NCBI GenBank assembly: GCA_964500725.1
Contig: CAZCNP010000002.1
Location: 69,347-133,346 of the forward strand
DNA length: 64,000 nt
Direction of reading: 5' to 3'
Origin: an uncultured Gammaproteobacteria bacterium
GTDB taxonomy: Bacteria; Patescibacteriota; Microgenomatia; Daviesbacterales; UBA10151
The notes below the pieces were generated by a model that ran no database searches, was not told the DNA's origin, and worked only from the letters and a program-made list of their open reading frames with translations. Every line of letters starts with the position of its first letter. Position 1 is the first letter of the stretch. This document shows positions 1,501 to 62,139 of the stretch, in pieces. The translations under genes were made by a program, and so were the position numbers.

Positions 1501-1536
1501 AAGGGAAATTATATACTTTTGCTGTATAATTTCCTA
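1501..1536. promoter_or_regulatory. Putative divergent promoter region between prfB and the tsaB-like ORF.
   Basis: 36 bp AT-rich divergent intergenic region containing TATAAT (ctgtataatttcc). No experimental support. Confidence 0.25.
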
Positions 1537-1839: not shown

Positions 1840-1843
1840 AAGA

Positions 1844-6397: not shown

Positions 6398-6407
6398 TAG
6401 ACAAAAT

Positions 6408-14385: not shown

Positions 14386-14391
14386 CTTTTT

Positions 14392-34949: not shown

Positions 34950-34962
34950 GAATTATAATTTT

Positions 34963-37990: not shown

Positions 37991-38027
37991 ACGATATATA
38001 TTTGTAGGATAATTGATTTAGAATAAT
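37991..38027. promoter_or_regulatory. Putative divergent promoter region (37 bp) between the GT2 gene on - and the GT-C gene on +.
   Basis: Contains TAGGATAAT / TAGAATAAT -10-like elements. Very compact. Confidence 0.25.
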
Positions 38028-41251: not shown

Positions 41252-41260
41252 AGGTTTATA

Positions 41261-42880
41261 CTAAAAGTTAGGGAGGCTTGGAATGGGTAGATTTCCCCAA
41301 TGTGATACTAAGTAAGGTATAAATAAGTGGTTAAAAGTAATAATTTTTTGAATAATTATTATCCAAAAGGCAAGCCATATAATTTTAGTTAAATAGTGTT
41401 TATGAAATACTAGCCTTAAGATAAGTAGAGTGCAGAATATAAGAAAAGAATATCTATAATGGGTGATGCTGGGTTGCAGATTTAATGCGACTCTGCCCCA
41501 ATAATAGCTACTAGAAAAAGGAATAAAGAAGAATGCCAGAGCCGTAGCTATGTTAGGATCTTTATATATTTGCCAAATTACTATTGCGCTGCAACATGCA
41601 AAAAAAGGAATCATTGATATGAAATACCATGGATAATTAGGACTTCCTAAGAAAAGCACCAATAGAAAGTGGAATAACAACGGGATTGTTAAAAATTGTA
41701 AGTTTTCTTGTTTTTTGAGGGATACTATTAAAAAGCTAAGGAGTCCCCAAACCCACCAACCATCCGTGGGGAAATCTTTAAATTTCAGAGCCTCTAACAT
41801 CGAAACTAGTTTTAAGGCGCCAAAGTAACTCCTTTCGGTGTTAGCCCTCAGGATATCTAAGAATAAATCCATTTGTAACCAAAAACCCCAAAGAAAATAA
41901 GAGACAATTGGGATCAGCATGGCAAGAAAGAAAGTTATTAAGTACCTTTTAGGAATTTTATTTATAAATAGTAAAATTGTAGATCCAACCAGGAATCCTA
42001 ATGTAGGCTCTTTTACTAATAGTCCTAATCCACCAATGAACCCTGATAAAGTTAAAGCAATAAAAGTTATTTTTGAGGAAAGATCTTTTTTATATGCCTG
42101 TATAGCTCCAAATAAAATTATTAAATGGAGTAAGATAAATGGTGGTACTGCATTTTCCAGAAAAGCAGTCCTAGTTGCTAATAAATAAGTAGGTACGGTT
42201 GAATAAATGATTAAAGAGAGCGATGCGATCCAAGGGTTTTGTGTAATTAAATAAGTAAATAAGAATAATAAAATTGCTGTTATTACGGCTAAAACTAAAG
42301 TGGGCTTTCTAAACTCAGCTGGTTTTACCTGGTTAAACTCCTTGATGTTACTTCCTTCTCCCAGGCTATAAATTAATCCTCCGAGTGGAGGGTGGTCAAA
42401 AAAGGGTGCAACAAAAAACATATGCTCTAAGCCCTTGTTGTAATTTATTTGCTCTATGGCTATGAACGGATTTTTATTTTTATGGAATTCTTCTAAAGTA
42501 ATAATTTTGCCTTCGGATACAAGCTTAAACCCTATTAAATTAGCTCCCTTGGATTGATATTGAGGTTTATCATAGATATGCCTAAAGGTAACCCAACCGA
42601 TTGGTAAGCCGGTTGATCTTAAACTTAAACCTTGCCAAACATAATTATATTCATCAGTAATCGTCGGCGAAGGAACGGTTTCATATCCAAACCATCTATA
42701 AAATAAGCTTTGGTATAAAATTATAGCTGACACAATTAAAGCGACCAAGAGGCTAACTATTTTTAAATAAGGTAATGTTGACTTCTGGAAGGGTAATAAA
42801 GATTTAATTTTTTTGTACAAAAATAATAATCGATTATTTGCTAAACTAAGCCCGATTTGGTGTATTTTCTTAAATGGCAT
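41261..42880 (-). CDS. Polytopic membrane protein, putative GT-C glycosyltransferase (DE-motif).
   Basis: First external loop TITDEYNYVWQGLSLRSTG. 539 aa with at least 10 TM helices. Convergent with the upstream gene, 9 bp apart. Confidence 0.55.
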   Translation of the reverse strand: MPFKKIHQIGLSLANNRLLFLYKKIKSLLPFQKSTLPYLKIVSLLVALIVSAIILYQSLFYRWFGYETVPSPTITDEYNYVWQGLSLRSTGLPIGWVTFRHIYDKPQYQSKGANLIGFKLVSEGKIITLEEFHKNKNPFIAIEQINYNKGLEHMFFVAPFFDHPPLGGLIYSLGEGSNIKEFNQVKPAEFRKPTLVLAVITAILLFLFTYLITQNPWIASLSLIIYSTVPTYLLATRTAFLENAVPPFILLHLIILFGAIQAYKKDLSSKITFIALTLSGFIGGLGLLVKEPTLGFLVGSTILLFINKIPKRYLITFFLAMLIPIVSYFLWGFWLQMDLFLDILRANTERSYFGALKLVSMLEALKFKDFPTDGWWVWGLLSFLIVSLKKQENLQFLTIPLLFHFLLVLFLGSPNYPWYFISMIPFFACCSAIVIWQIYKDPNIATALAFFFIPFSSSYYWGRVALNLQPSITHYRYSFLIFCTLLILRLVFHKHYLTKIIWLAFWIIIIQKIITFNHLFIPYLVSHWGNLPIPSLPNF

Positions 42881-42951
42881 ATCTATAATAATGTAGCCAA
42901 AATATGGAGAGTTAGCAAGTACAAATGATAAATGATATGCTTATTTAATAA
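42881..42951. promoter_or_regulatory. Putative divergent promoter region (71 bp).
   Basis: AT-rich with a TATAAT hexamer (ctataataatg). Flanked by divergent GT-C genes. Confidence 0.25.
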
Positions 42952-44550
42952 GTGAATAACTGGTTGTACAAATCAATATTAATACTTATATTAATTATAT
43001 CGTTTGCTTTGAGGGTATATAAATTGGATTCAGTTCCTCCTGCTTTATCGTGGGATGAAGCAGCAAATGGTTATAACGCCTATACTATTGCAAACTGGGG
43101 GAGAGATGAATATGGAAAATTTTTGCCTGCATATTTTAGATCGTTTGCAGATGATAAGCATCCGGTGCATATTTATGCAACAGCAGTTAGTGTTAAGTTA
43201 TTAGGCCTATCAGAATTTAGTACTAGGTTACCTGCTGCTGTTTTTGGGACTCTTAGTATACTATTAATTTTCTTTCTGGCTAGAATGTTATTTAATAATA
43301 ATTTAGTCGGTCTAATTGCCTCTTTTTTCCTTGCTGTATCTCCTTATCATTTTCACTTTTCAAGAACTAATCACGAAGCTGTGCCAACCTTATTTTTCTT
43401 TTTGCTGGGATTAGTGTTATTTTTTAAGTCTTTAAAAAAAGGGGGATTCTATTTGCCAGGATCAGTTTTAAGTTTTGTAATTGCCTTTCTTGGTTATCAT
43501 ACATCAAAGGTAGTTTTGCCAATGATATTAGTGCTATTGTTTTTTCTTTGGAGAAAAACTCTTCTAAAAAATCAACAAGGTTTGCTAATTTCTTTTATAA
43601 TTATTGTATTACTTGCTTTGCATTTGTTTCTTAATCCACAACTTTTAGGTCTTGCCAGAATTAATCAGACCTCATTAAACAAACAGACAATCGAGTCAAC
43701 TCAGCTTTTCAAATTAACAAATAATGAATTTTTAGGGAGAGTAAATATTACTTTGGAGCAGTACTCTTGGCATTTTTATCCGCAATATTTGTTTGTCTCT
43801 GGGGACAAGAATGCCCGTTTATCAGCTCAAGGTGCAGGAGAATTTTATTGGATTGATGCTATATTTTTTATCTTTGGTCTTGCTTATTTGCTGTATAAGA
43901 GGTCAAAGGAAGGGGTGCTCCTCATATCATGGGCTTTAATTGCTCCTCTTCCATCAAGCTTAGTAGGAGAAGCGCCGCATGCTGCAAGGGCAATGTTTAT
44001 GATGGGAAGCTTTCATCTAATTTCTGCTTTGGGGTTGTATTTTATCATTAAATTACTTAAGAGCAAGATATTTCAAGTATCGTTTTTGGTACTTACAGTT
44101 GCGACTTTAATAATTTTATTTCAAGGATTTTTAAAATATTATTTTGGTGAATATGCCAGCAGGTACGCAATAGAATGGCAATATGGTATGAAACAGATTG
44201 TTGAGTATGTTAAAGATCATAAAGAATATGATCAAGTTTTCATGACTGATGCCAGATCTCAGCCTTACATATTTTTTCTATATTACTTAAAGCCAGATTG
44301 GGGGAATTATTTAAGTTCTGTTATATATAACAATGCAGAGAGTAACAGAAGCTATAATACTGTTTCTGCCTATGATAGGTATTATTTTGGAGGTTGGGAT
44401 CCTCTGGCAAGCTTTCCTAGTCCAGGCGTACTTTATATATTGACGCCTAGCCAATACGACGGATTAATGCATAAATCCACTTTTGATGTAAAAAAGGTTA
44501 TATACTATCCTAATGGAGTGACTGCATATTTCTTAGTCAGTGTTAAATAA
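42952..44550 (+). CDS. ArnT/PMT-family GT-C membrane glycosyltransferase (WDE-motif close paralog C).
   Basis: GTG start. LSWDEAANGYNAYTIANWGRDEYGKFLPAYFRSFADDKHPVHIY, VSPYHFHFSRTNHEAV, APHAARAM, IEWQYGMKQIVEYV. Confidence 0.72.
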   Translation: MNNWLYKSILILILIISFALRVYKLDSVPPALSWDEAANGYNAYTIANWGRDEYGKFLPAYFRSFADDKHPVHIYATAVSVKLLGLSEFSTRLPAAVFGTLSILLIFFLARMLFNNNLVGLIASFFLAVSPYHFHFSRTNHEAVPTLFFFLLGLVLFFKSLKKGGFYLPGSVLSFVIAFLGYHTSKVVLPMILVLLFFLWRKTLLKNQQGLLISFIIIVLLALHLFLNPQLLGLARINQTSLNKQTIESTQLFKLTNNEFLGRVNITLEQYSWHFYPQYLFVSGDKNARLSAQGAGEFYWIDAIFFIFGLAYLLYKRSKEGVLLISWALIAPLPSSLVGEAPHAARAMFMMGSFHLISALGLYFIIKLLKSKIFQVSFLVLTVATLIILFQGFLKYYFGEYASRYAIEWQYGMKQIVEYVKDHKEYDQVFMTDARSQPYIFFLYYLKPDWGNYLSSVIYNNAESNRSYNTVSAYDRYYFGGWDPLASFPSPGVLYILTPSQYDGLMHKSTFDVKKVIYYPNGVTAYFLVSVK

Positions 44551-49594: not shown

Positions 49595-50721
49595 ATATTT
49601 TGATTCTTTCTTGGCGAGGACCTAAGCACCCTAATGCTGGTGGAGCAGAAATTTCTACACATGAACATGCAAAAGGCTGGGTAAAGGTAGGTCATCAAGT
49701 AACTTTGTTTACCTCTGCTTTTGTAAACTGTAAAATGGAAGAAGTAATAGATGGTGTAAAAATAATAAGGCGAGGAAGGCAAATACTTGGGGTTCAATGG
49801 GAGGCTTTTAAATGGTATATATTCGGTAAACACCCTGAATTTGATTTAGTAATTGACCAATTTCATGGTATTCCTTTTTTTGCTCCGTTATATATAAAGG
49901 TTAAGAAGTTAGCATTTATTCATGAAGTAACTAAAGAAGTTTGGTGGTTAAATCCTTGGCCTTGGCCACTGAATAGGATGGTAGCCTTTATTGGAATTGT
50001 ATTTGAACCAGTAATATTTTGGTTATATAGACATATTCCATTTATGACGGTATCAAAGTCTACGCGAGATGATTTAGTTGCTTGGGGAATCCGAAAAGAT
50101 AAAATTACTATAGTCAATAATGGGGTAAAGTTTCCAAAAGTAATGAGTTTTCCCGAGAAAGAAGGCAAAAAAACTCTTATTTTTTTTGGAGCGTTAAGTA
50201 AGGATAAAGGTATAGAGGATGCGCTTATAACTTTTAGATTAGTTAGTCAGACGGAAAAGCAACTACAATTTTGGGTGATAGGTGAAGCTGACCCCAGGTA
50301 TTTACAAAGATTAAAATTGGAAAGTAAAAAGCTAGGAATTGATCAGCTAGTAAAATTTTGGGGGTTTGTTAATGAGAAGAAAAAGTTTGAATTATTGACA
50401 AAAGCCTATTTAGCAATAAACCCTTCTGTTAGGGAGGGTTGGGGTTTAGTTGTGATCGAAGCTGCTGCAATGGGAACTCCTACTATTGGTTATAATGTCC
50501 CTGGATTAAGAGACTCGATAATAGATGGAAAAACAGGTTTACTATCTAAGCCAACTCCCGAGTCTTTAGCAGAAAGAGTATTATATCTTTTGAGGAAAGA
50601 TGCATTATATAAAAAGCTGCAAACTAAATGTATTAAATGGAGTAAACAGTTTAATTGGAGCAAGTCGGTATTAAAGAGTGTAAAATTAGTAAAAGAGGTA
50701 CAATCTGAATTAGTTAATTGA
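49591..50721 (+). CDS. GT4 (GT-B) glycosyltransferase.
   Basis: ATGA overlap with the upstream gene. REGWGLVVIEAAAMGTPTIGYNVPGLRDSIIDGKTGLL (E-x7-E). Confidence 0.82.
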   Translation: MNILILSWRGPKHPNAGGAEISTHEHAKGWVKVGHQVTLFTSAFVNCKMEEVIDGVKIIRRGRQILGVQWEAFKWYIFGKHPEFDLVIDQFHGIPFFAPLYIKVKKLAFIHEVTKEVWWLNPWPWPLNRMVAFIGIVFEPVIFWLYRHIPFMTVSKSTRDDLVAWGIRKDKITIVNNGVKFPKVMSFPEKEGKKTLIFFGALSKDKGIEDALITFRLVSQTEKQLQFWVIGEADPRYLQRLKLESKKLGIDQLVKFWGFVNEKKKFELLTKAYLAINPSVREGWGLVVIEAAAMGTPTIGYNVPGLRDSIIDGKTGLLSKPTPESLAERVLYLLRKDALYKKLQTKCIKWSKQFNWSKSVLKSVKLVKEVQSELVN

Positions 50722-52521
50722 CTTTAGATCTTTCTTAACTTGATCGGTAATATCTAATACCTTTTTATCTATTAATCTCAGGGCAAAGAAATTATTTGAA
50801 TTGTAAAATATATCTTCAAAAATAAAGCCCTTGATGCCATCTCTGGTTACCATTAAGGATTTAAGTTTGTTAAAATCTGTAATTATTGGAGGAACCAGCT
50901 CTCTTCTAAAATTTATCTGCGGCCACCAGCCTGCCCAGCCAGCATTGCCATCTCCACGATATCCAGCGATAATATTTTTTTCGTAATAGTTCTTATTATT
51001 TAAGTCAGTATCCTTATCGATATATATCAAACGAGGATTTTCAATAGAAAGATTCTGATAATACGGTAGTAATTGTCCTCGCATGTAATTTTGATCCTCG
51101 AAATTACCAACAAACAGATAAGGGGAATCAAAAAGTTGTTTTATTTCCTGAACACTGATTACAAAATAAACCAGTATTAATAGGAAAGAAAAATACGCTA
51201 TTCTTTTGAAGAAGGTATTACGCAGTTTTTTATAAAGAACAACTGTAAATGTGCCAAGGAAAAAGTTTATGAATACCGTGGATAGCGTTAAGTAACGATG
51301 CTCGTTAAAAAAAAGAAGATTTCTTTCGTGGGTGCCTACCCACATACCAAAAATCATAATAAAAGAAAAAATAGGACCTAAGAAGAAGCCTACATATAGT
51401 GAGTTCCTATGTTCTAACCAATCTAAGAAAAAAGCTAGGGATAACCCTAAGATGTAAAAACCAATTGGGGATTTGTTTTCAAGATCAATTGAATAATTAG
51501 CGCCACCGGTTAATATAGAAGCTAGTAGTATACCAATAACCCATATTATAAAAGTGATCATAATGAATCTAGATGGATGCTTAGATAGAAGAAGCGCTAG
51601 TGCTGGCGTTAAGAAAAAAAATAGTAAATATATATAAGAGGGCCATATATAGGTTGGTAAGATAGTTGACGCAAATGCGGTAAAAGGTATTAACAGATAG
51701 CCGTTATCATTTCCAGATAAGTTATATTGTATTGTAAGGGCGAGAACAGTAGATATCCTTTCTGTAATATTGGCAGAGGTGATTAATGTTAGGATAATTG
51801 CTAGCAGTAGCGGTAATAAAAAAAAGACAAATCTCCTGATGTTTAAATTTAACTTATTACAAGATCTATTTCTAAATAAAACAAATAGTTCTGATAGTAA
51901 TATGATGATTACAAGAGGATAGGTTCTGGCGGTTGAAATAACAAAAGTTAAGAAAAGGAATATTAAGGCAAGGGGGTATAAGGGAAAGATTCTAGATTCC
52001 TTGCTTTTAATCAAATGGAAATATATCGTTAAAAATATTGACATAGTAGATATAGCTAAATAGTTTCCTGCAGTGACAACATTTAGTAAATCTCCTGTTG
52101 TGGCATAAGAAATGGCAAAAAAGATTGAAGAAACGAAAGCAACTAGGATACTCCCTGATAATACAAAAAATAGGGGATAAGTAGATAATGCAGCTAAAGC
52201 TTTAAAGAAATGTGCTGTTTGATGATAAGCAACAAAATTATCCCCCAAAAAGAAATTTAAAATACCGATATAATAATATTGGTGTAAATATAAGGTTGGC
52301 CATTCTTGGAGACTTTTCATAATGAATTGAACAGGATTTGGATATTGTCTTTTAAGTGTTATGAAAAAGGCAACAGACCCATCATCGATATCTCCAAAAC
52401 CATATTTTAATTGTGGTTGAAGAAGATAAATTTGACTTGCAAAAATAAGTGGAATAAGGATAAAGAAGAGGAAATGAGTTCTAAGCAATTTTTTAACACA
52501 ATTAACCAACTTAGCCTTCAT
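50710..52521 (-). CDS. Polytopic membrane protein (603 aa), putative GT-C glycosyltransferase or polymerase.
   Basis: First loop YGFGDIDDGSVAFFITLKRQY (acidic DD motif). At least 12 TM helices. The 3' end overlaps the convergent GT4 gene by 12 nt. Confidence 0.5.
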   Translation of the reverse strand: MKAKLVNCVKKLLRTHFLFFILIPLIFASQIYLLQPQLKYGFGDIDDGSVAFFITLKRQYPNPVQFIMKSLQEWPTLYLHQYYYIGILNFFLGDNFVAYHQTAHFFKALAALSTYPLFFVLSGSILVAFVSSIFFAISYATTGDLLNVVTAGNYLAISTMSIFLTIYFHLIKSKESRIFPLYPLALIFLFLTFVISTARTYPLVIIILLSELFVLFRNRSCNKLNLNIRRFVFFLLPLLLAIILTLITSANITERISTVLALTIQYNLSGNDNGYLLIPFTAFASTILPTYIWPSYIYLLFFFLTPALALLLSKHPSRFIMITFIIWVIGILLASILTGGANYSIDLENKSPIGFYILGLSLAFFLDWLEHRNSLYVGFFLGPIFSFIMIFGMWVGTHERNLLFFNEHRYLTLSTVFINFFLGTFTVVLYKKLRNTFFKRIAYFSFLLILVYFVISVQEIKQLFDSPYLFVGNFEDQNYMRGQLLPYYQNLSIENPRLIYIDKDTDLNNKNYYEKNIIAGYRGDGNAGWAGWWPQINFRRELVPPIITDFNKLKSLMVTRDGIKGFIFEDIFYNSNNFFALRLIDKKVLDITDQVKKDLKSIN

Positions 52522-52536
52522 TGTTACAATTATATA

Positions 52537-54249
52537 TTAAAACTCTTTCGGGTATTCAAGTGGATACTTAGAAATAATATATTCTCCTAGGATTAAATAA
52601 TCCATATTAGTTCTAAAAAAAGCGGATATAGCATCTTGAGGAGTACAAACGATTGGCTCTCCGGCAAGGTTGAAACTAGTATTTAATAGTGCAGGGATGC
52701 CTGTGAGTTTATAAAACTCATTTATAAGATTCCAATATCTTGGATTAGTTTTTTTAGATACGGTTTGAGGTCTAACTGTTTTATCAATATGCATTGCTGC
52801 AGTTATATCTTTTTGTTTTTCTAGGCATACTCTAGATGAAAGAATCATGAAGGGTGAATTAGGAGTATCAACTAAATAATCTTTTGCATATTCCTGGAGG
52901 ATTGATGGAGCAAACGGTCTCCAATTTTCTCGGCCTTTGACTTTAAGATTAACTAAGTCTTTCATCTTTGGTATCGAAGGGTCTGCCAAAATTGAACGGT
53001 TTCCTAAAGCTCTTGGTCCTACTTCCATTCTTCCTTGAAACCAACCGATTATTTTTCCTTCTGATATTAATTTTGCTACCCTTTTTTCAATATTTTCTTC
53101 TTTTTTATAAAATGGTAGGTCGGCTTTCTTGATGACTTTTAAAATTTGATCATTTGAGAAGGATGGTCCCCAATATGCATGGTTTAATTTAAAATCAGGC
53201 CTTTTTCCTAATACATCTGTATGAATTGCCAATGCAGCTCCCAGGGCGGTTCCGGCATCATTACTAGCAGGTTGAATATAAATATTTTTGACGAAAGATT
53301 GCTTTAAGACTTGAGTATTTGCTAGACAATTCAGCGAAACTCCTCCTGTTAAACAGAAGTTACTAATTCCAGACTTTTCATATAAATATTTCGCCATATA
53401 GATATATGCTTGTTCTATGGTTTTTTGTAGCGACCCAGCGATGTTTCTATTAGGCTTGTCTAATGGATTATTGGATAATTTCTTACTCATTTGATTTAAG
53501 TAAGTTATCATTTTATTTTTATCAACTCTCAAAAACCCATCTTTAAAGCTTACGAAAGGAAAAATATCTACATTTTTATCTGCATATGAAGATAACCCCA
53601 TAACCTTACCAGGCCCATCATAACCGTCAAAACCCAAAAACTCGGTAAAGAATCCATATAAAAAACCAAGGCTGTCATTAATAGGAATCCTTTTTAAAAT
53701 ATTAATCTTTTCCCCATTTCCTATTGCCAATATTCCAGCTTCCTGCCCCCCGCTTCCGTCCATAGATATAATACAAGCATTTTTCATACCGGAACAAAAA
53801 TAAGTACTGGTAATATGAGCAAGATGGTGTCTAATAAATTGCACTCTTTTCTCTCGCCAATTAAAGGGAAGATTTAGAAGACCTTGATAACAAACTAGAA
53901 ATGGTTGGATAATTCCATAAGCTGTACCTGTTATCCATTTAGATTCTATATTTAATTTTGTCCTATTAGTAGAAAGCGTATTTTTCAGTAGGGAAAAGGT
54001 TTTAGTAACTAAATTACTCGTCAAGATTGTCAGATAATTATTGGATCCAATCCCAATATAATCGAGATCATCAATGGTAATATTGCCTTCCTTCAGACAG
54101 TAGTTAATAGAGTGGTAAGCAGGCTGATTAATGGAATGTTTAACTCGGTTAAACCGCTCTTCTTCAGCGAACGCGATAAGTTTACCATCAATTATTAGAG
54201 CGGCGGCCGGATTTAATGAGATAGGATGCGAAATTCCTAATATTTTCAT
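52537..54249 (-). CDS. Carbamoyltransferase of the NodU/CmcH family (O-carbamoyltransferase).
   Basis: N-terminus MKILGISHPISLNPAAALIIDGKLIAFAEEERFNRVKH is the characteristic carbamoyltransferase N-domain signature. 570 aa, the typical size. Confidence 0.8.
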   Translation of the reverse strand: MKILGISHPISLNPAAALIIDGKLIAFAEEERFNRVKHSINQPAYHSINYCLKEGNITIDDLDYIGIGSNNYLTILTSNLVTKTFSLLKNTLSTNRTKLNIESKWITGTAYGIIQPFLVCYQGLLNLPFNWREKRVQFIRHHLAHITSTYFCSGMKNACIISMDGSGGQEAGILAIGNGEKINILKRIPINDSLGFLYGFFTEFLGFDGYDGPGKVMGLSSYADKNVDIFPFVSFKDGFLRVDKNKMITYLNQMSKKLSNNPLDKPNRNIAGSLQKTIEQAYIYMAKYLYEKSGISNFCLTGGVSLNCLANTQVLKQSFVKNIYIQPASNDAGTALGAALAIHTDVLGKRPDFKLNHAYWGPSFSNDQILKVIKKADLPFYKKEENIEKRVAKLISEGKIIGWFQGRMEVGPRALGNRSILADPSIPKMKDLVNLKVKGRENWRPFAPSILQEYAKDYLVDTPNSPFMILSSRVCLEKQKDITAAMHIDKTVRPQTVSKKTNPRYWNLINEFYKLTGIPALLNTSFNLAGEPIVCTPQDAISAFFRTNMDYLILGEYIISKYPLEYPKEF

Positions 54250-54368
54250 GAATGAAATTAGAGCTATTATAGAGTTTAACTATTTTTTAATCAATAGAAA
54301 CTGAAATTAGCTGTATTACTGAGTTTTACCATCTTGTATTATAGTTTTTAAATTTGGATAATCCTGTT
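54250..54368. promoter_or_regulatory. Putative divergent promoter region between the carbamoyltransferase gene (-) and the GT2 gene (+).
   Basis: 119 bp AT-rich non-coding gap, the largest in the locus. Candidate -10 elements (TATTATAG). Confidence 0.25.
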
Positions 54369-55196
54369 ATGCAAAGTGCTTTAGTTTCTATTGTCATAAC
54401 AACAAAGAATGAGGTAGATGTTATAGGCAGATTATTAAAAAGTATTAGAAAGCAGTCATATAGAAAAGTTGAAATTATTGTAGTTGATAATAAATCAACT
54501 GATAGAACAAAGGCAATTGCAAAAAAATTTACAAAAAAAATCTATGATAAAGGTTCAGAAAGATCATCACAAAGAAATTTTGGTGCCCAAAAAGCAAAGG
54601 GTAATTATTTACTTTTTATGGATGCTGATATGGAGTTGTCTGAAAGAGTTGTCGAGGCATGTGTCGTTAAGACAGAAGGAAGTGATAAGATTGTGGCGTT
54701 AATAGTTCCGGAAATATCTAAAGGAAAAGGGTATTGGGAAAAAGTGAAGGCATTTGAAAGATCCTTTTATAATATAGCAGGTGATGACATTACAGATGCA
54801 GCTAGATTTTTTAGAAGAGAAGTATTTGAAAAGGCTGGGGGTTATGATAAAGAATTAACTGGTACGGAGGATTGGGAATTAACAGATAGATTAAGAACAA
54901 AAGGATTTTTAATTGATAGAATTGATGCTTCAATTTATCATTATGAAAGGATTCCTAATTTGTATTCGCTTCTTAAGAAAAAATATTATTATGGCTTAAA
55001 AAGCTATATTTATATCAAAAAACATAGTTTACAAATAATGAATCCAAAAATAATATATTTCTTAAGGCCAGTATTTTATAAACAATGGCAAAGAATGATA
55101 AAGCACCCAGTTCTTACTCTGTCTATGTTTTTTATGTTTGTATTAGAGATGATAGCTGGGGGATTAGGGTATCTAAGAGGTAGATATTATGAGTAA
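54369..55196 (+). CDS. GT2 glycosyltransferase.
   Basis: Start at ATG 54369 (MQSALVSIVITTKNE). The track's start at 54354 is a TTG. KQSYRKVEIIVVDNKSTDRT, FMDADME (DxD). Confidence 0.8.
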   Translation: MQSALVSIVITTKNEVDVIGRLLKSIRKQSYRKVEIIVVDNKSTDRTKAIAKKFTKKIYDKGSERSSQRNFGAQKAKGNYLLFMDADMELSERVVEACVVKTEGSDKIVALIVPEISKGKGYWEKVKAFERSFYNIAGDDITDAARFFRREVFEKAGGYDKELTGTEDWELTDRLRTKGFLIDRIDASIYHYERIPNLYSLLKKKYYYGLKSYIYIKKHSLQIMNPKIIYFLRPVFYKQWQRMIKHPVLTLSMFFMFVLEMIAGGLGYLRGRYYE

Positions 55197-57189
55197 GCTC
55201 TCAGTTTTACAAATCTCACCATTCTTTTCACCTAATACAGGAGGGGTAGAAACCCATTTGGATGATTTGATAAAACTTGCAGGAAAAAGAAAGATTAAAA
55301 ATACTGTTATTGCGTATCAGCCCCTAGTGGGAAGCCAAAGAGATAAAGGTTTTGAAAGGAGGGGTAATAGCAAGATCTATAGAGTCAATTGGTTGAGGAA
55401 TATCTTTTATAAGACTGAAAAATATCCCATCCTTCATTTTATTTACCTAACTCCTTATTTAGCTTTAAGGAGTTTAATTATAATGAAAAAGGAAAGTAAG
55501 AAAATAGATATTGTGCATTCTCACGGCATAAATGCTGCAGTTATCGGAGTTTTAATAAAAAAGCTATTTAAGAAACCTTTAGTTGTAAGTCTCCATGTTG
55601 AATTAAATTTACTTAGAACGACATTTTCTACCAGGTTTATTTTGTTTTGTTTAAAAAAGGCAGACTGTATTTTAGTACTGACAAAAAAAACTAAAAAAAA
55701 GCTTATCAAATTAGGAATCGATGAAAGAAAAATTAAGCTTTTTTCGTATTGGGTTGACCAGCAAATTTTTAGTCCGCAAAATAAACAGCAAATAAGAAAA
55801 CAGCTGAAATGGGATATGCATTTTAATGTGCTTTTTGTTGGTCGTTTGGTTATTGAAAAGGGGGTTAAGGTTTTATTAGATGTTGCTAAGAAAATGCCGG
55901 ATATTCAATTTATTTTTGCAGGTACAGGCCAATTGGATAATGAAGTTAGGCAAAGAAGTAGGGAATATAATAATATTATTTACTTAGGAAAGATCTCTAA
56001 TACTAAGTTAACCACTTATTATAATGCTGCCGATGTGTTGGTGGTTCCTTCTCTAATAGAAAATGTAAAAAAAGAATACGAAGAAGGAGTTCCCAGGGTA
56101 ATAATAGAAGCATTATCTTGCGGTTTACCTATTATAGGAACTGATAACGGTGGAATGAAAGAGATAATTTCAGAGAGTATGGTAGGAAAAGTTTGCGAAG
56201 GCAGTTTGGAGGCCATAATTTTTGCTATAAGAGAGATATCAAATTCCAATCAAATGTATCAATACAAAAATAGGGCTAGGCAATATGCTTTAGAACGTTT
56301 TAATGAACGCAACGGTTTAATAATTATAGATACTTATGAAGAATTAAGGTTCCAGGCTTTAATTGAATCTAAATTAAAAGTCCTTTTAGAAAAAGTAGGA
56401 GATATGGCGTTAAAAAGGCGGGCTCACAGTGTAATTGAATCTTTGGACCTACAAAAGGGTAAGAAAATTTTGGATGTTGGTTGCGGGGATGGATTTTACC
56501 TTTATTTGTTATCAAATCTGGGAGTAAAGCTTAAGTTAGTAGGAATAGATTTAGAGGTAAGAGGTTTAAGAAGTGCCAAAAGGAATTTAAGAAAGAAAAG
56601 TATTACTTTTATCCAAGCTGATTTAATGAAGCGGTTACCGTTTGCTTCCAGCAGTTTTGATAATATAATCATGAGTGAAGTTGCAGAACACCTGTTAGAT
56701 GATGTTAAAGGCCTAAAAGAAGTTTATCGAATTTTAAAGCAAGGAGGTAAGCTTTTATTAACAGTGCCTTGTCAAAGTTATCCATTGTTATGGGATCCAG
56801 TAAATTGGATATTGGAACATTTATTTAAGACCCATATTAAAAGTGGTTTTTGGGCAGGTATTTGGAACCAGCATGTGAGGCTTTATTCTTTGAGAGGCAT
56901 TAATACGGTTCTAGAATCATCCGGTTTTAGTATAGAAAAATCCGAGATACAAACTTTCTGGTGCATTCCTTTTAATCACCATATTCTTAATTTAGGAGCA
57001 AGACTTCTAACAAGTAAGCGTTTGCCTAGCTCACTTGAGAATTCTGTTAATAAATTTTCGGAAAGCCCGAATAAAAATATTAATCCAATAAGCCTTTTTT
57101 TTGCAATTATTAATCTTATTGATAAACTGAATAATGTTTTATCAATTAATTCATCAGGAGTTTCAATTTTTGTTAAAGCAAGGAAATAG
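55189..57189 (+). CDS. Fusion protein: N-terminal GT4 glycosyltransferase and C-terminal class I SAM-dependent methyltransferase.
   Basis: Residues 1-390 are GT4 (GVPRVIIEALSCGLPIIGTDNGGMKEII). Residues about 400-600 carry the SAM-binding motif I ILDVGCGDGFY, acidic motif II (GIDLE), and LKQGGKLLLTVP (post-II/III). Confidence 0.8.
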   Translation: MSKLSVLQISPFFSPNTGGVETHLDDLIKLAGKRKIKNTVIAYQPLVGSQRDKGFERRGNSKIYRVNWLRNIFYKTEKYPILHFIYLTPYLALRSLIIMKKESKKIDIVHSHGINAAVIGVLIKKLFKKPLVVSLHVELNLLRTTFSTRFILFCLKKADCILVLTKKTKKKLIKLGIDERKIKLFSYWVDQQIFSPQNKQQIRKQLKWDMHFNVLFVGRLVIEKGVKVLLDVAKKMPDIQFIFAGTGQLDNEVRQRSREYNNIIYLGKISNTKLTTYYNAADVLVVPSLIENVKKEYEEGVPRVIIEALSCGLPIIGTDNGGMKEIISESMVGKVCEGSLEAIIFAIREISNSNQMYQYKNRARQYALERFNERNGLIIIDTYEELRFQALIESKLKVLLEKVGDMALKRRAHSVIESLDLQKGKKILDVGCGDGFYLYLLSNLGVKLKLVGIDLEVRGLRSAKRNLRKKSITFIQADLMKRLPFASSSFDNIIMSEVAEHLLDDVKGLKEVYRILKQGGKLLLTVPCQSYPLLWDPVNWILEHLFKTHIKSGFWAGIWNQHVRLYSLRGINTVLESSGFSIEKSEIQTFWCIPFNHHILNLGARLLTSKRLPSSLENSVNKFSESPNKNINPISLFFAIINLIDKLNNVLSINSSGVSIFVKARK

Positions 57190-59427: not shown

Positions 59428-62139
59428 GTGTTTTTAAAGAACAAAGTTTGGTTTCGGGATTTAGTATTTATCAGCATTATCTCACTTGTTATTACAACTA
59501 TATGGTTTCGTCATGGTGTTTTGTACGGAGGAGGAGAATCAGGGTTATATTTCAACGATTTAAATTTAACTTTGAAGAATTCTTTCTCAGTTTGGCTTGA
59601 TAGTTATGTCGGCGTTCCATCACTTTATCAAATTATTAATATACCATTTTATTTTTTTTCTTATCTACTTTTTATTCTCAAAATTCCAGGTTGGTTAATT
59701 CAAGCATTTATAAATTTCATTTTACTTAGTACAGGAATGATTTCGATGTATTTCCTTCTTCAAAAAACGCTTTCGAAAAATAATTGTTATAGTGGAGGTG
59801 CGCTTTTTGGAGCCCTTTTTTATTTATTCAATCTTTATTCAATGAGCCAAATCTGGAGCAGAGGGCTTTATCAGCAGTTTATTCCGTTTGCTTCTTTTCC
59901 GTTAATGTTTTTGCTGGCATATCTGGCATTAGAAAAGCTGCAGACTGTTTATATTTTAATTTTACTTATAGCATCATTTATTTTTTCTGCTGGATATACT
60001 CCAGCAAATGTACTGTCTTTTTGGATAATGATAGGGATAGAGTTTTTATATTTTTTTTGGTTTTATAGAAAGAAGTTTAATTATCTTTTGAAGAGTGCTA
60101 TTTTATTTTTTGTTCTTGTATTTGGATGGATAGGGATTCATTCCTCCTGGATTGTTGGATATTTTCTATTTGCAAATAATCTATATTTATCAAACCCATC
60201 TGTTAGAAACGAAGGATTAGGTACGCTTTTGACGATAAGTAGATACTCGCCTTTAACCTCTGTTCTTCGTCTTGTTCAGGATTATTACTTTAATAGTAAT
60301 TTACTTTATGGAGACTTTTATCCCTCTTCATTCTTCAAGATAACTAGTTGGATTACTCCGATATTGTTTTTATTCAGTCTCTCAGCAGTGAAACGAGCCG
60401 AAAAGATGTATTTGTGGATGATTTTATTATTTGTCGCTTTATTTATTTGTTTAGGTGCAAGTTTGCCATTAGGATTTATATTTGTGTGGTTTTTTCAAAT
60501 TTTCCCAATTTTAGAATTATTTAGAAATCCTTATGAAAAATTTGGAATTGTTTTATTAATATCTTATACACCTTTTATTGCTCTTGGGTACTTAAAATTA
60601 TCAGAATTTTTGAAGCTTAGGTTTAGAATGTTTCAATCTTTCTTCAAAACTATTATCATTTTCATAATTTTTTTTCTGCTGGTTTGGCCAATGTGGACAG
60701 GACTTGTTATAACTACAAAGGATAATCGTAATTTTGTCAATATTCCATCCTACTATCAAGAGTTAAAGGATTGGATGGAGAAGCATAATAAAATTAATAA
60801 TCGGATTGCCATGTTGCCCTTTTTGCCTGGTGAAGGAGTAACTTTGGAATGGAATGGAAGAATTTATTCTGGTATTGATCCAAGTATAAATATCTTGGAT
60901 TATTCTATTATTTCTTGGGTGCAGAATTACCCTTATATAGAACCGCTACTAAAGGAGGTTTATAAAGATATAAATAAAATAGATATAACTTCAATATTTG
61001 GATTGCTTAGAGCAAAATACTTAGTTATTAGGGATGATGTTTTAGAGGTAAATAAAAGAGATTTGCAACAGGAAGAAAGTTTGTTGCATGCTGTTTATGC
61101 GCCTCAAGCCATCAATGAACAGATGCCTGTCATCTGTCCGAACCAAGCATCGACTTTATATACAGAAAACCATTTAATTTTTATTTGTCAGATTCCTGTC
61201 AACCTTTCTGATTGGAGGAGATATCATTATCTGCATTTACTTGTTAAAACAGATAAACCTGCAGCTTTAGATATAGCTCTAAGAGATCAAAATAATGAAA
61301 GACCTAGGTGGGATGGGACTACTAATCCTGATTTTAGAACATATTCTTCTAACTTAACTAATTTATTTTTGGATTTGGATCTATATATATACTCAGATGA
61401 GAAATTTAATCCATCCGTAGTTAAATCATTGGAAATTTATGGTTATTCGAATCCTGAGATTAAAGATTCATTGTTGCCTACAAAAGTGGAAGTAATAGCG
61501 GGACATCTTGACTCTGGCAAAAAGACAGATGTAGATAATTATAATTTCATTAAGCAGTTCGGAAGATTAAGATTATACCAATTGAAAAAATACCAAGATT
61601 TTCCCGATATAACTACTTTAGCAGACCTTTTTATGGTAGATAATTTTTCGCAAATGTTCAAAGTAGCAGCTAATCTATCCGTGATAGATGGATCTAGAGG
61701 TTATATGCTTAGATCGCAAAATGACAAGTTTACTCCATTGACAAGCTTTTCTAGGTATGCGTCAAAGTCTGTAACCGAGCTTTCCTCAACAAAATATTTA
61801 GTTAATCTGGAAAGTAAGGAAAATTATTATTTGGCTTTGCACAAAACTTTTAATACTTTATGGAAAGTTATACCAAATGTTTCAGAGGGTGATTTAAAAG
61901 GTGGCTTTATTAATAATATACGCCTTATACAAAAACAAACTCTATCAGAAAAAAACCATTTTATAGTAAATGGTTATGCCAATGGCTGGAAGCTTGACCA
62001 GCAAAGCAATGAATATGCTGTAGTATTTATTCCTCAAATTATTACAGAGATATTGATTTACGTTTCCGTGGTATTTCTTTTATTCATATTATTTCTCCTA
62101 TTTTGTCTGTTAAAAATTAACAAAGTTAAATCTAAGTAA
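59428..62139 (+). CDS. Large 903-aa membrane protein: N-terminal polytopic domain (about 430 aa), large extracytoplasmic domain and a C-terminal TM anchor; YfhO- or AftD-like GT-C glycosyltransferase candidate.
   Basis: GTG start. About 12 N-terminal TM helices with an acidic loop (GGGESGLYFNDLN), a soluble region of about 430 aa, and a final hydrophobic helix (ILIYVSVVFLLFILFLLFCLL). This architecture resembles YfhO-type LTA/WTA glycosyltransferases. Confidence 0.5.
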   Translation: MFLKNKVWFRDLVFISIISLVITTIWFRHGVLYGGGESGLYFNDLNLTLKNSFSVWLDSYVGVPSLYQIINIPFYFFSYLLFILKIPGWLIQAFINFILLSTGMISMYFLLQKTLSKNNCYSGGALFGALFYLFNLYSMSQIWSRGLYQQFIPFASFPLMFLLAYLALEKLQTVYILILLIASFIFSAGYTPANVLSFWIMIGIEFLYFFWFYRKKFNYLLKSAILFFVLVFGWIGIHSSWIVGYFLFANNLYLSNPSVRNEGLGTLLTISRYSPLTSVLRLVQDYYFNSNLLYGDFYPSSFFKITSWITPILFLFSLSAVKRAEKMYLWMILLFVALFICLGASLPLGFIFVWFFQIFPILELFRNPYEKFGIVLLISYTPFIALGYLKLSEFLKLRFRMFQSFFKTIIIFIIFFLLVWPMWTGLVITTKDNRNFVNIPSYYQELKDWMEKHNKINNRIAMLPFLPGEGVTLEWNGRIYSGIDPSINILDYSIISWVQNYPYIEPLLKEVYKDINKIDITSIFGLLRAKYLVIRDDVLEVNKRDLQQEESLLHAVYAPQAINEQMPVICPNQASTLYTENHLIFICQIPVNLSDWRRYHYLHLLVKTDKPAALDIALRDQNNERPRWDGTTNPDFRTYSSNLTNLFLDLDLYIYSDEKFNPSVVKSLEIYGYSNPEIKDSLLPTKVEVIAGHLDSGKKTDVDNYNFIKQFGRLRLYQLKKYQDFPDITTLADLFMVDNFSQMFKVAANLSVIDGSRGYMLRSQNDKFTPLTSFSRYASKSVTELSSTKYLVNLESKENYYLALHKTFNTLWKVIPNVSEGDLKGGFINNIRLIQKQTLSEKNHFIVNGYANGWKLDQQSNEYAVVFIPQIITEILIYVSVVFLLFILFLLFCLLKINKVKSK

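What the first reader, a model, noticed from the sequence alone, without database searches (positions are those of the whole stretch)
52537..54249. NodU/CmcH-type O-carbamoyltransferase embedded in the glycan locus.
The N-terminal signature (MKILGIS...AAAL.DGKL...EEERF.R.KH) is characteristic of carbamoyl-phosphate-dependent O-carbamoyltransferases. Its presence implies that a sugar of this glycan is O-carbamoylated. This decoration is rare, known from Nod factors, some O-antigens and cyanobacterial polysaccharides.
Basis: partly seen in the sequence, partly recalled or inferred. Interest (0 to 1): 0.6.

Follow-up and report, generated by a model that had tools for sequence, protein, structure and literature searches.

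The report
Glycan-locus carbamoyltransferase lacking the usual catalytic histidine
The gene is a genuine TobZ/NodU-family carbamoyltransferase in a very large sugar-chain gene cluster of an uncultured Patescibacteria bacterium, and it belongs to an unstudied branch of the family that lacks the histidine all characterised members need to attach the carbamoyl group.

Summary
The ORF at 52537-54249 (minus strand, 570 aa) is real and is a full-length class III carbamoyltransferase. Both Pfam domains score far above cutoff, TobZ is the best solved relative (E 2e-99), and the AlphaFold model matches TobZ, VtdB, GdmN and NovN at TM 0.82-0.86. It is not Kae1/TsaD/HypF and not a NodU equivalog. The four metal ligands and the carbamoyl-phosphate/ATP-site residues are invariant. 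The His-Asp dyad that holds the general base (TobZ H14, GdmN H27; GdmN H27N is inactive) is Leu12-Asn13 here. This defines a clade (Patescibacteria, Chloroflexota, Scalindua and others) with the motif G-x-[ST]-H-P-x-S-x-N-x-A-A. About a quarter of the nearest family representatives also lack the His. The gene lies in a roughly 60 kb glycan locus. It is transcribed divergently from a GT2 and a GT4-methyltransferase fusion, and apparently co-transcribed with a weakly GT-C-like membrane protein. A Daviesbacteria genome carries the same five functions with a distant carbamoyltransferase paralogue. Carbamoylation of a sugar of this glycan is the best reading. Whether the acceptor is a hydroxyl or an amine, and which residue acts as base, are open. 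Ordinary as a family member; modestly interesting as a mechanistic variant.

The parts
52537..54249 (-). Class III (TobZ/NodU-type) carbamoyltransferase, 570 aa, no predicted TM segment (cytoplasmic)
   Evidence: ORF; Pfam; PDB sequence hits; AF2 model pLDDT 89.4; Foldseek TM 0.82-0.86 to TobZ, VtdB, GdmN and NovN; hydropathy
53230..54246 (-). Kae1-like N-terminal (transfer) domain, aa 2-340, with metal ligands H141, H145, D164, D331
   Evidence: Pfam PF02543. The ligands align with TobZ H114/H118/D137/D338 and are invariant in 119/119 relatives
54208..54228 (-). Beta1-beta2 catalytic loop, aa 8-14 (H-P-I-S-L-N-P). Leu12 and Asn13 occupy the positions of the TobZ H14-D15 general-base dyad. His8-Pro9 is specific to this clade
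   Evidence: L-INS-i alignment with TobZ; censuses; loop limits from DSSP of the model (strands 2-7 and 15-20, pLDDT 92-93); role of the His from PMC9633730
52567..53076 (-). YrdC-like C-terminal (carbamoyl-adenylate-forming) domain, aa 392-561, with R413, K438, R440, M468, S525, N527
   Evidence: Pfam PF16861. K438, M468 and S525 align with TobZ K443, M473 and S530, the residues mutated in PDB 3VEZ, 3VF2 and 3VF4. All are invariant in 119/119 relatives and in 149-150 of 150 representatives
50710..52521 (-). 603-aa polytopic membrane protein (about 11 TM segments plus a C-terminal soluble domain) of an orphan family with a weak GT-C-like fold. It starts 15 bp after the carbamoyltransferase stop codon on the same strand, so co-transcription is likely
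   Evidence: no Pfam or NCBIfam hit; only 13 homologues; hydropathy; AF2 pLDDT 76.7; Foldseek top hits are STT3, PglB, AglB, ArnT and DPY19 with probability ~1 but TM 0.3-0.4; no terminator-like site in the 15-bp gap
54250..54353 (.). 104-bp divergent intergenic region. The best promoter-like site, TTGATT-17-TATAAT, lies at 54294..54266 on the minus strand, 17 bp upstream of the carbamoyltransferase ATG
   Evidence: This is a consensus match only; the number of such sites in the region is not above the shuffled expectation
54354..55196 (+). GT2 glycosyltransferase (280 aa) of the conserved module, transcribed divergently from the carbamoyltransferase
   Evidence: Pfam; 55% identical to the GT2 that heads the Daviesbacteria operon in L089
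55189..57189 (+). GT4 glycosyltransferase fused to a class-I SAM methyltransferase (666 aa)
   Evidence: Pfam. The two halves match two separate genes in L089, GT4 at 36% and methyltransferase at 46% identity. The same fusion is present in the 81%-identity orthologue locus L005

Best explanation
The gene encodes an active, cytoplasmic, two-domain class III carbamoyltransferase. By analogy with TobZ, the YrdC-like C-domain condenses carbamoyl phosphate with ATP to give carbamoyl-AMP. The Kae1-like N-domain holds this intermediate at a His2Asp2 metal site and transfers the carbamoyl group to an acceptor. The acceptor is most probably a sugar of a lipid-linked or nascent saccharide built by the adjacent GT2 and GT4-methyltransferase. 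That saccharide would therefore carry both methyl and carbamoyl groups, and would then be delivered outside the membrane by the apparently co-transcribed GT-C-like protein. Unlike every characterised relative, this enzyme has no His at the general-base position (Leu12). It must either use another base, with the clade-specific His8 in the same seven-residue loop as the obvious candidate, or act on a nucleophile that needs none. Shown here: family, fold, conserved cofactor residues, absence of the His, and the gene context with its partial conservation. Inferred: enzyme activity, the identity of the acceptor, O- versus N-linkage, the role of His8, and the lipid-linked route.
For: Both Pfam domains score far above cutoff. 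TobZ matches at E 2e-99 by sequence, and at 1e-134 with the clade profile. The model has pLDDT 89.4 and full-length TM 0.82-0.86 to TobZ, VtdB, GdmN and NovN. The metal ligands H141/H145/D164/D331 and the adenylation-site residues R413/K438/R440/M468/S525/N527 are invariant in 119/119 relatives and in at least 147 of 150 representatives, which argues for a working enzyme under selection. Context also supports a glycan role. The window is a glycan locus. Homologues at 57-60% identity sit directly beside methyltransferases and among GT2/GT4 genes. A census of 107 neighbouring ORFs in 16 clade loci is led by methyltransferases (11), radical SAM enzymes (9), GT4 (8), GT2 (7) and sugar epimerases/dehydratases (5). 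A Daviesbacteria locus has GT2, GT4, methyltransferase and carbamoyltransferase in one operon, divergent from a 39%-identical homologue of the 603-aa membrane protein. Its carbamoyltransferase is only 32% identical to the query, so the function is retained while the gene has been swapped. The membrane protein's best fold matches are all GT-C enzymes.
Against: No biochemistry exists for any member of this clade. The general-base His is absent, and in GdmN the H27N mutant is completely inactive (PMC9633730), so the transfer activity cannot be taken for granted. His8 is not universal even in the wider clade: L018-L023 and P0106 lack it. The 603-aa partner is not conserved next to the 57-60%-identity homologues. 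Its GT-C assignment is weak (TM 0.3-0.4; E 5e-4 at best). No source of carbamoyl phosphate (carbamate kinase or CPSase) is encoded in the window. Co-transcription is inferred only from the 15-bp spacing.
Confidence: 0.68

Rival explanations
1. It is an N-carbamoyltransferase. The acceptor is the free amine of an amino sugar (or another amine) of the glycan, giving a ureido rather than a carbamate linkage. An amine nucleophile would explain why the general-base His is dispensable.
For: The general-base position is Leu, and it varies across the clade (W, L, R, Y, M, H, F), so it is not catalytic there. A NodU-like enzyme, StdF, carbamoylates a lysine epsilon-amine (PMC13174530). The related Kae1/TsaD enzymes transfer to an adenine N6 amine. 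The 81%-identity orthologue locus L005 carries a DegT-type sugar aminotransferase and a hexapeptide acyltransferase inside the same gene block, and L090 also has a DegT gene.
Against: No aminotransferase or deacetylase was found among the window's ORFs. Whether StdF lacks the His was not checked. A conserved His8 in the loop fits a relocated base equally well. All known sugar carbamoylations by this family are O-linked (NodU, NolO, TobZ, NovN; my own knowledge).
Confidence: 0.2
2. The acceptor is not the locus glycan but some other molecule, such as a small metabolite, a natural product, a peptide or a nucleic-acid base. In that case the gene's position among glycosyltransferases would be incidental.
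For: The family's acceptors are very diverse: aminoglycosides, ansamycins, coumarins, cephems, peptide lysine and phage 5hmC DNA. Radical-SAM/B12/SPASM enzymes, typical of natural-product tailoring, are the second most common neighbours of clade members.
Against: In the window the gene is surrounded for tens of kilobases only by glycan genes. The GT2 + GT4 + methyltransferase + carbamoyltransferase + membrane-protein set recurs in Daviesbacteria. No PKS, NRPS, RiPP or phage genes were seen here.
Confidence: 0.07
3. The protein is impaired in the transfer half-reaction because the general base has been lost. It would act only as a carbamoyl-AMP-forming or -binding protein, or be a decaying enzyme.
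For: GdmN H27N is completely inactive. The TobZ H14N variant was crystallised in complex with the carbamoyl adenylate intermediate (3VEX title).
Against: The Kae1-like domain, all four of its metal ligands and the clade-specific loop motif (H8, P9, S11, N13, each >=90% conserved) persist across sequences down to 43% identity in several phyla. That pattern indicates purifying selection on a working active site. The ORF is intact and identical in several samples.
Confidence: 0.04
4. It is a Kae1/TsaD (tRNA t6A) or HypF (hydrogenase maturation) family protein rather than a carbamoyltransferase of the TobZ/NodU type.
For: There are weak sub-threshold hits to TsaD, HypF_C_2 and Sua5/YrdC models, as expected from the shared ancestry of the domains.
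Against: All of these hits are below their cutoffs: TsaD 13.1 vs 24.8, TIGR00329 35.1 vs 207.8, HypF 29.7 vs 466.1. The carbamoyltransferase C-domain is present at 236.9 bits. Structurally, TsaD/Kae1 covers only the N-domain (TM ~0.4), against 0.82-0.86 for full-length TobZ-type enzymes.
Confidence: 0.01

Closest known systems
TobZ (tobramycin 6''-O-carbamoyltransferase, Streptoalloteichus tenebrarius; PDB 3VEN and related entries)
   Same: It is the best solved relative: E 2e-99, 33% identity in the structural alignment, TM 0.82. It has the same two-domain Kae1-like + YrdC-like architecture. The metal ligands (H114/H118/D137/D338 = H141/H145/D164/D331) and the adenylation residues (K443/M473/S530 = K438/M468/S525) match.
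   Different: TobZ has the His14-Asp15 dyad; the query has Leu12-Asn13. The query's beta1-beta2 loop is two residues shorter and starts with a clade-specific His8-Pro9 where TobZ has Trp9-Pro10. The TobZ acceptor is a free aminoglycoside in an antibiotic pathway, not a cell-envelope glycan.
VtdB, GdmN and NovN (O-carbamoyltransferases with solved structures: 7XB6, 7VYJ and related entries, 9S2T)
   Same: All match over the full length, at TM 0.83-0.86 and sequence E 1e-74 to 1e-78. The carbamoyl-AMP mechanism and the His2Asp2 iron site are described for GdmN (PMC9633730).
   Different: GdmN His27 is the proven general base (H27N is inactive), and VtdB has LGHDAAAAL. The query has no such His. 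GdmN and NovN carry an extra C-terminal dimerisation domain of about 100 aa that the query lacks (570 aa vs 682-687 aa). Their acceptors are polyketide or aminocoumarin metabolites.
NodU (with NodS) of rhizobial Nod-factor synthesis
   Same: Same Pfam family. NodU carbamoylates a sugar (6-O of the non-reducing GlcNAc of the lipo-chitooligosaccharide). Its gene lies next to that of the SAM methyltransferase NodS, which modifies the same residue (my own knowledge). That mirrors the methyltransferase-carbamoyltransferase pairing seen here and in L006-L008 and L089.
   Different: The query is not a NodU equivalog: 141.7 bits vs a cutoff of 1000, aligned over residues 270-532 only. NodU carries the canonical His-Asp (my own knowledge, not tested here). 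The methyltransferase here is fused to a GT4, and there are no nodABC-type genes in the window.
WapO (PA5005), putative carbamoyltransferase of the Pseudomonas aeruginosa LPS core oligosaccharide
   Same: It is a carbamoyltransferase gene embedded in a cell-envelope glycan operon beside glycosyltransferases (wapH). It is thought to carbamoylate core-oligosaccharide sugars using CarB-derived carbamoyl phosphate (PMC13552734). Functionally it is the nearest analogue of what is proposed here.
   Different: It acts in a Gram-negative LPS pathway, whereas this locus is dominated by GT-C enzymes and polyprenyl-phosphate-sugar synthases in a Patescibacteria genome. WapO's own biochemistry is still putative.
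StdF (NodU-like carbamoyltransferase domain in a RiPP pathway) and the phage 5hmC carbamoyltransferase
   Same: Same family and the same carbamoyl phosphate + ATP requirement. They show that the family's nucleophile is not restricted to sugar hydroxyls.
   Different: Their acceptors are a peptide lysine amine and DNA 5-hydroxymethylcytosine, in RiPP and phage gene contexts. Neither context is present in this window.

Membership tests
Class III carbamoyltransferase (TobZ/NodU/CmcH type; Pfam Carbam_trans_N + Carbam_trans_C) | Kae1-like N-terminal domain matching PF02543 above its gathering score | tested here: met
   152.7 bits vs cutoff 24; residues 2-340 cover model positions 1-346 of 346
Class III carbamoyltransferase (TobZ/NodU/CmcH type; Pfam Carbam_trans_N + Carbam_trans_C) | YrdC-like C-terminal domain matching PF16861 above its gathering score | tested here: met
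   236.9 bits vs cutoff 27; residues 392-561 cover model positions 1-170 of 170
Class III carbamoyltransferase (TobZ/NodU/CmcH type; Pfam Carbam_trans_N + Carbam_trans_C) | Full-length two-domain fold shared with the solved members | tested here: met
   AF2 model pLDDT 89.4, pTM 0.89. Foldseek: TobZ TM 0.82 (E 3e-51), VtdB 0.86, GdmN 0.83-0.85, NovN 0.83
Class III carbamoyltransferase (TobZ/NodU/CmcH type; Pfam Carbam_trans_N + Carbam_trans_C) | His2Asp2 metal site in the Kae1-like domain (TobZ H114/H118/D137/D338; GdmN H133/H137/D156/D333) | tested here: met
   H141, H145, D164 and D331 align to these positions and are invariant in 119/119 relatives
Class III carbamoyltransferase (TobZ/NodU/CmcH type; Pfam Carbam_trans_N + Carbam_trans_C) | Carbamoyl phosphate/ATP-site residues of the YrdC-like domain (TobZ K443, M473, S530 and neighbours) | tested here: met
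   K438, M468 and S525, together with R413, R440 and N527, are invariant in 119/119 relatives and in 149-150 of 150 representatives
Class III carbamoyltransferase (TobZ/NodU/CmcH type; Pfam Carbam_trans_N + Carbam_trans_C) | General-base His, followed by Asp, in the beta1-beta2 loop (TobZ H14-D15, GdmN H27-D28, VtdB H-D) | tested here: not met
   The query has Leu12-Asn13 in the ungapped register given by the 120-sequence L-INS-i alignment and by the alignment-free rule of 20 residues before the Arg of EER. No register places a His there. The His is essential in GdmN.
Class III carbamoyltransferase (TobZ/NodU/CmcH type; Pfam Carbam_trans_N + Carbam_trans_C) | Carbamoyl-AMP formation from carbamoyl phosphate + ATP, and carbamoyl transfer to an acceptor | not testable with these tools
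   This requires an enzyme assay.
NodU (NCBIfam NF041651, equivalog) | Whole-protein score at or above the curated equivalog cutoff | tested here: not met
   141.7 bits vs cutoff 1000; only residues 270-532 align
CmcH (3-hydroxymethylcephem carbamoyltransferase) | Specific orthology to CmcH and a beta-lactam cluster context | not tested
   No CmcH-specific model or sequence was available. The window holds no beta-lactam biosynthesis genes.
Kae1/TsaD (t6A) and HypF | Score above the family cutoffs; for Kae1/TsaD, absence of a fused carbamoyltransferase C-domain; for HypF, acylphosphatase and Zn-finger domains | tested here: not met
   PF00814 13.1 vs 24.8; TIGR00329 35.1 vs 207.8; TIGR03723 28.2 vs 296.1; HypF TIGR00143 29.7 vs 466.1. 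Structural overlap is limited to the N-domain (TM ~0.4).
GT-C fold glycosyltransferases (for the apparently co-transcribed 603-aa membrane protein) | Polytopic N-terminal module plus an extracytoplasmic C-terminal domain with a GT-C fold | tested here: inconclusive

The most novel reading that the evidence does not exclude
The 'HP-x-S-x-N' proteins form a mechanistically distinct subclass of class III carbamoyltransferases. They are widespread in Patescibacteria, Chloroflexota, anammox Planctomycetes and other phyla. In this subclass the canonical general-base His has been lost and its role has either moved to His8 in the same loop or become unnecessary because the acceptor is an amine. The subclass would be dedicated to capping cell-envelope glycans with carbamoyl groups (together with methyl groups) on a lipid-linked precursor that a new GT-C-like family then exports. 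This would be the first defined glycan decoration chemistry for Candidate Phyla Radiation bacteria.
Probability: 0.3. Interest if true: 0.55.

Novelty: new variant of a known kind. Interest (0 to 1): 0.4.

Why it matters
As a plain family assignment this is routine. Public databases already label the protein 'carbamoyltransferase', and the family has thousands of clusters. Two things add value. First, every biochemically or structurally characterised member uses a His general base that is indispensable in GdmN. This protein and a large clade around it lack that His, yet keep everything else, so current mechanistic models do not cover a substantial part of the family. Second, the surface glycans of Patescibacteria (CPR) are essentially uncharacterised. 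A conserved module of GT2, GT4, methyltransferase, carbamoyltransferase and a GT-C-like protein makes a concrete, testable prediction for mass spectrometry of enrichment cultures or for heterologous expression: a sugar unit that is both methylated and carbamoylated.

Tried and rejected
(1) The pairwise and profile HMMER alignments to TobZ placed Asn13 opposite His14 by opening single-residue gaps, whereas the GdmN alignment placed position 12 there. The 120-sequence L-INS-i alignment and an alignment-free rule resolved the register to Leu12 = His14 and Asn13 = Asp15. I dropped the initial 'natural H14N' reading.

(2) I tested whether the 603-aa membrane protein is a universal partner of the clade. 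BLASTP against the unannotated membrane proteins beside the 57%-identity homologues (L007, L008) found nothing. It is conserved only in closer Microgenomates-type loci.

(3) The GTDB genome scan did not recover the source genome; the best genome locus is 45% identical, from Falkowbacteria. The organism is therefore inferred only from protein names (Patescibacteria group, Daviesbacteria).

(4) L-INS-i on the 152 representative sequences timed out. The fast MAFFT run mis-registered some N-termini, for example scoring THPISWNNAA as 'HP', so I replaced it with the anchor rule.

(6) There are no tRNA or Rfam elements in the window.

(7) The promoter and terminator scans gave counts no higher than shuffled sequence. 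I report only the position of the best site.

(8) NCBIfam gave no equivalog-level name for any protein of the module.
Full report
**1. Observation**

An intact 570-aa ORF (ATG to stop) lies at exactly 52537..54249 on the minus strand. The identical protein is called on 8 contigs from at least four independent sequencing runs, the longest contig being 277 kb. The gene is therefore real. The window has about 33% G+C, with nothing unusual around the gene. It contains no tRNA genes and no Rfam matches.

**2. Family and fold**

- **Pfam.** Carbam_trans_N scores 152.7 bits (cutoff 24) over residues 2-340. Carbam_trans_C scores 236.9 bits (cutoff 27) over residues 392-561. Each match covers its whole model.
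- **Refutation test.** The TsaD, gcp_kae1 and HypF models all score far below their cutoffs.
- **Not NodU.** The NCBIfam NodU equivalog reaches 141.7 bits against a cutoff of 1000, over residues 270-532 only.
- **Solved relatives by sequence.** TobZ is best (E 2e-99), followed by VtdB (7XB6), NovN and GdmN. With a profile of 40 clade members, TobZ reaches E 1e-134.
- **Structure.** An AlphaFold2 model built on that alignment is confident (pLDDT 89.4, pTM 0.89). It superposes over its full length on TobZ (TM 0.82), VtdB (0.86), GdmN (0.83-0.85) and NovN (0.83). TsaD/Kae1 structures cover only the N-domain (TM about 0.4).
- **Location.** No TM segment is predicted, so the enzyme is cytoplasmic.

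**3. Catalytic residues**

The TobZ alignment maps the residues as follows.

| Role | TobZ | Query |
|---|---|---|
| Metal ligands | H114, H118, D137, D338 | H141, H145, D164, D331 |
| Adenylation site (mutated in 3VEZ, 3VF2, 3VF4) | K443, M473, S530 | K438, M468, S525 |

The identity of the mutated TobZ residues comes from the PDB entry titles. GdmN's iron ligands H133/H137/D156/D333 are the same set (PMC9633730). These residues, together with R413, R440 and N527, are invariant in all 119 family members I aligned. They are also present in at least 147 of 150 diverse cluster representatives. The adenylate-forming half and the metal centre are therefore intact and under selection.

**4. The deviation**

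In GdmN, His27 sits 2.5-2.8 Å from the acceptor hydroxyl and acts as the general base. The H27N mutant is completely inactive, and the authors call the His universally conserved in that CTase subclade (PMC9633730). TobZ His14 is the same residue; the H14N variant was crystallised with the carbamoyl adenylate intermediate (3VEX title). VtdB also has it, as LGHDAAAAL.

In the query this position is not His.

- **Register.** Pairwise HMMER alignments were ambiguous: Asn13 if a gap is opened, position 12 if not. An L-INS-i alignment of 119 relatives plus the TobZ N-terminus gives an ungapped register, TobZ F13-H14-D15-A-S-A-A = query S11-L12-N13-P14-A15-A16-A17.
- **Independent check.** An alignment-free rule agrees: the base position lies 20 residues before the Arg of the invariant EER motif, in TobZ and the query alike.
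- **Result.** The His-Asp dyad is Leu-Asn in the query.
- **Census of 119 relatives.** Forty-eight are HD; all of these are 37-43% identical to the query, and none has His at the column of query position 8. Sixty-one are x-N, with x = W 29, L 8, H 5, Y 5, R 5, M 3, F 2 and four singletons. Of the x-N proteins, 47 of 61 have His at position 8 and 53 of 61 have Pro at position 9.
- **Within the 40 closest homologues (43-84% identity).** H8, P9, S11 and N13 are each at least 90% conserved.
- **Phylogeny.** A neighbour-joining tree built only from columns outside the first 25 residues places the HP...xN proteins contiguously in leaf order, apart from every HD protein. The motif therefore marks a real clade. 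It includes Patescibacteria, Chloroflexota/Anaerolineae, Candidatus Scalindua, Peribacteria, Thioploca and a Bradyrhizobium MAG.
- **Wider sample.** Among the 150 nearest 50%-identity representatives, 97 of 142 classifiable sequences have His at the base position. About 38 truly lack it, once roughly seven off-by-one cases are discounted.
- **Family size.** There are 6,969 representatives at E ≤ 1e-30.

The loop itself (residues 8-14, between strands 2-7 and 15-20) is modelled with pLDDT 92-93. His8 and position 12 lie in the same seven-residue hairpin. A relocated base is therefore geometrically plausible, but I could not measure it.

**5. Surroundings**

The whole window is one glycan locus. 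It contains:

- prfA and a CAP-domain protein at the left edge;
- rmlABCD and a GDP-mannose 4,6-dehydratase (2874-7424);
- a GT2-GtrA polyprenyl-phosphate-sugar synthase (7489-8676);
- a GT2-PMT_2 fusion (9877-12072);
- about 14 GT-C paralogues (PMT_2, PTPS_related, YfhO), partly in tandem arrays;
- two Polysacc_synt flippases;
- many GT2 and GT4 genes, a PIG-V-like mannosyltransferase and a UDP-GlcNAc 2-epimerase.

The carbamoyltransferase is followed after 15 bp, on the same strand, by a 603-aa protein with no terminator-like site between them. Across a 104-bp intergenic region it faces a GT2 (54354-55196) and a GT4-methyltransferase fusion (55189-57189). That region contains the best promoter-like site of the scan (TTGATT-17-TATAAT, 17 bp upstream of the ATG). 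This is a consensus match only.

The 603-aa protein has about 11 TM segments and a C-terminal soluble domain. It has no Pfam or NCBIfam hit and only 13 homologues in 5.8 billion clusters. Its AF2 model (pLDDT 76.7) has GT-C enzymes as its top 16 Foldseek matches (STT3, PglB, AglB, ArnT, DPY19). Probability is about 1, but TM is only 0.27-0.42. I treat this as a weak GT-C-like assignment.

**6. Conservation of context**

- **Orthologue at 81% identity (L005).** It has the same divergent GT2 + GT4-MT pair, and in addition a DegT aminotransferase and a hexapeptide acyltransferase.
- **Homologues at 57-60% identity (L006-L008).** Each has a class-I methyltransferase immediately upstream, GT2 genes and (in L007) a GT4 around it, and large polytopic proteins without annotation (9-13 TM) nearby. 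These membrane proteins are not detectably related to the 603-aa protein.
- **Census of 107 neighbouring ORFs in 16 genome loci of the clade.** It is led by methyltransferases (11), radical SAM enzymes (9, some with B12 or SPASM domains), GT4 (8), GT2 (7), NAD-dependent sugar epimerases/dehydratases (5) and extra carbamoyltransferase paralogues (3).
- **Daviesbacteria genome GCA_016180885.1 (L089).** This is the most telling case. A 39%-identical homologue of the 603-aa protein is transcribed divergently from an operon of GT2 (55% identical to 54354-55196), GT4 (36% to the N-half of 55189-57189), methyltransferase (46% to its C-half) and a carbamoyltransferase. That carbamoyltransferase is only 32% identical to the query and has an H-N dyad.

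The five functions therefore travel together, while the carbamoyltransferase itself has been replaced by a distant paralogue. This is good evidence that carbamoylation is part of what the module makes.

**7. Mechanism proposed**

- **Shown here:** family, fold, intact adenylation and metal sites, absence of the canonical base, and gene context.
- **From established knowledge of TobZ and GdmN:** carbamoyl phosphate + ATP gives carbamoyl-AMP in the YrdC-like domain. The intermediate then moves to the Kae1-like metal site, where the acceptor attacks it.
- **Inferred:**
  - The acceptor is a sugar of a short saccharide assembled by the GT2 and GT4 enzymes, probably on a polyprenyl phosphate carrier.
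  - The fused methyltransferase methylates that saccharide.
  - The product is flipped across the membrane.
  - The GT-C-like protein then transfers it to its final acceptor.
  - Either His8 replaces the missing base, or the nucleophile is an amine that needs none.

NodU-like enzymes do carbamoylate amines (StdF, lysine ε-NH2; PMC13174530) and DNA 5hmC (PMC8670742). Family membership therefore does not fix O- versus N-linkage. No aminotransferase was found in this window, which mildly favours O-carbamoylation. The DegT gene in the L005 orthologue locus keeps the N-route open.

**8. Comparison with known systems and novelty**

The protein works like TobZ, VtdB, GdmN and NovN. It is a member of the Pfam-defined class III carbamoyltransferases, but it fails the one catalytic feature shared by all characterised members. 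It is neither NodU nor a Kae1/TsaD/HypF protein.

The nearest functional analogues are NodU, which is paired with the methyltransferase NodS on a sugar (my own knowledge), and the putative LPS-core carbamoyltransferase WapO of P. aeruginosa (PMC13552734).

A literature search combining Patescibacteria, glycosyltransferase and carbamoyltransferase returned one unrelated paper. I found no description of the His-less clade, but the searchable library is incomplete.

**Verdict**

I rate the gene a new variant of a known kind, of moderate interest.

Noticed in passing
window 12862-21058 and 33480-44550: There are tandem arrays of GT-C-type membrane glycosyltransferase paralogues (PMT_2, PTPS_related, YfhO). 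The first stretch has five in a row and the second at least six, giving about 14 in the window. That is an unusually dense expansion for one locus.
   Followed up: partly
window 9877-12072 (+): A single 731-aa protein fuses a cytoplasmic GT2 domain (residues 7-168) to a PMT_2 GT-C domain (residues 298-456). This looks like a polyprenyl-phosphate-sugar synthase and its consuming transferase joined in one polypeptide.
   Followed up: no
window 22535-25987 (+) and 25984-27972 (+): Two adjacent large ORFs (1150 and 662 aa) have no Pfam hit but are clear paralogues of each other (phmmer E ~1e-94). Their function is unknown, and they sit in the middle of the glycan locus.
   Followed up: partly
window 59428-62139 (+): A 903-aa ORF with no Pfam or NCBIfam match lies between the UDP-GlcNAc 2-epimerase and a GT4. 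It is also present in the sister contig L001.
   Followed up: no
window 55189-57189 (+); L089:3214-5140: The GT4-methyltransferase is a single fused gene in this genome and in the 81%-identity orthologue locus L005. In the Daviesbacteria locus it is two separate adjacent genes, which indicates a gene fusion or fission event within the module.
   Followed up: yes
L089:8541-12141; L090:7853-13471: The orphan 603-aa GT-C-like family occurs as two to four tandem paralogues in the Daviesbacteria locus and in a second metagenomic locus (hmmsearch E 1e-25 to 1e-268). The window has only one copy.
   Followed up: partly
L025, L027, L029, L030, L032, L033, L047, L049, L055, L061, L062, L078 (match regions): A second, separate group of family members also lacks the canonical His-Asp. 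Its motifs are x-N-P-A-A-C or G-H-P-A-A-C (His shifted one position), and it occurs in Planctomycetes, Ignavibacteria, Acidobacteriota, Polyangia and a Bacteroidales MAG. It clusters apart from the query's clade in the tree.
   Followed up: partly
neighbourhoods of L009-L023, L044, L053: Radical-SAM enzymes (some with B12-binding or SPASM domains) are the second most frequent neighbours of clade members, at 9 of 107 ORFs. Three loci carry an additional carbamoyltransferase paralogue. The reason for the radical-SAM association is unknown.
   Followed up: no
window 41261-42880 (-) and 8673-9827 (-): Two further minus-strand ORFs (539 aa, about 8 TM segments; and 384 aa) have no Pfam hit and no paralogue in the window.
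   Followed up: no
window 433-2719: The left edge of the glycan locus is marked by prfA (peptide chain release factor 1) on the minus strand, next to a CAP/SCP-domain secreted protein (1805-2719).
   Followed up: no
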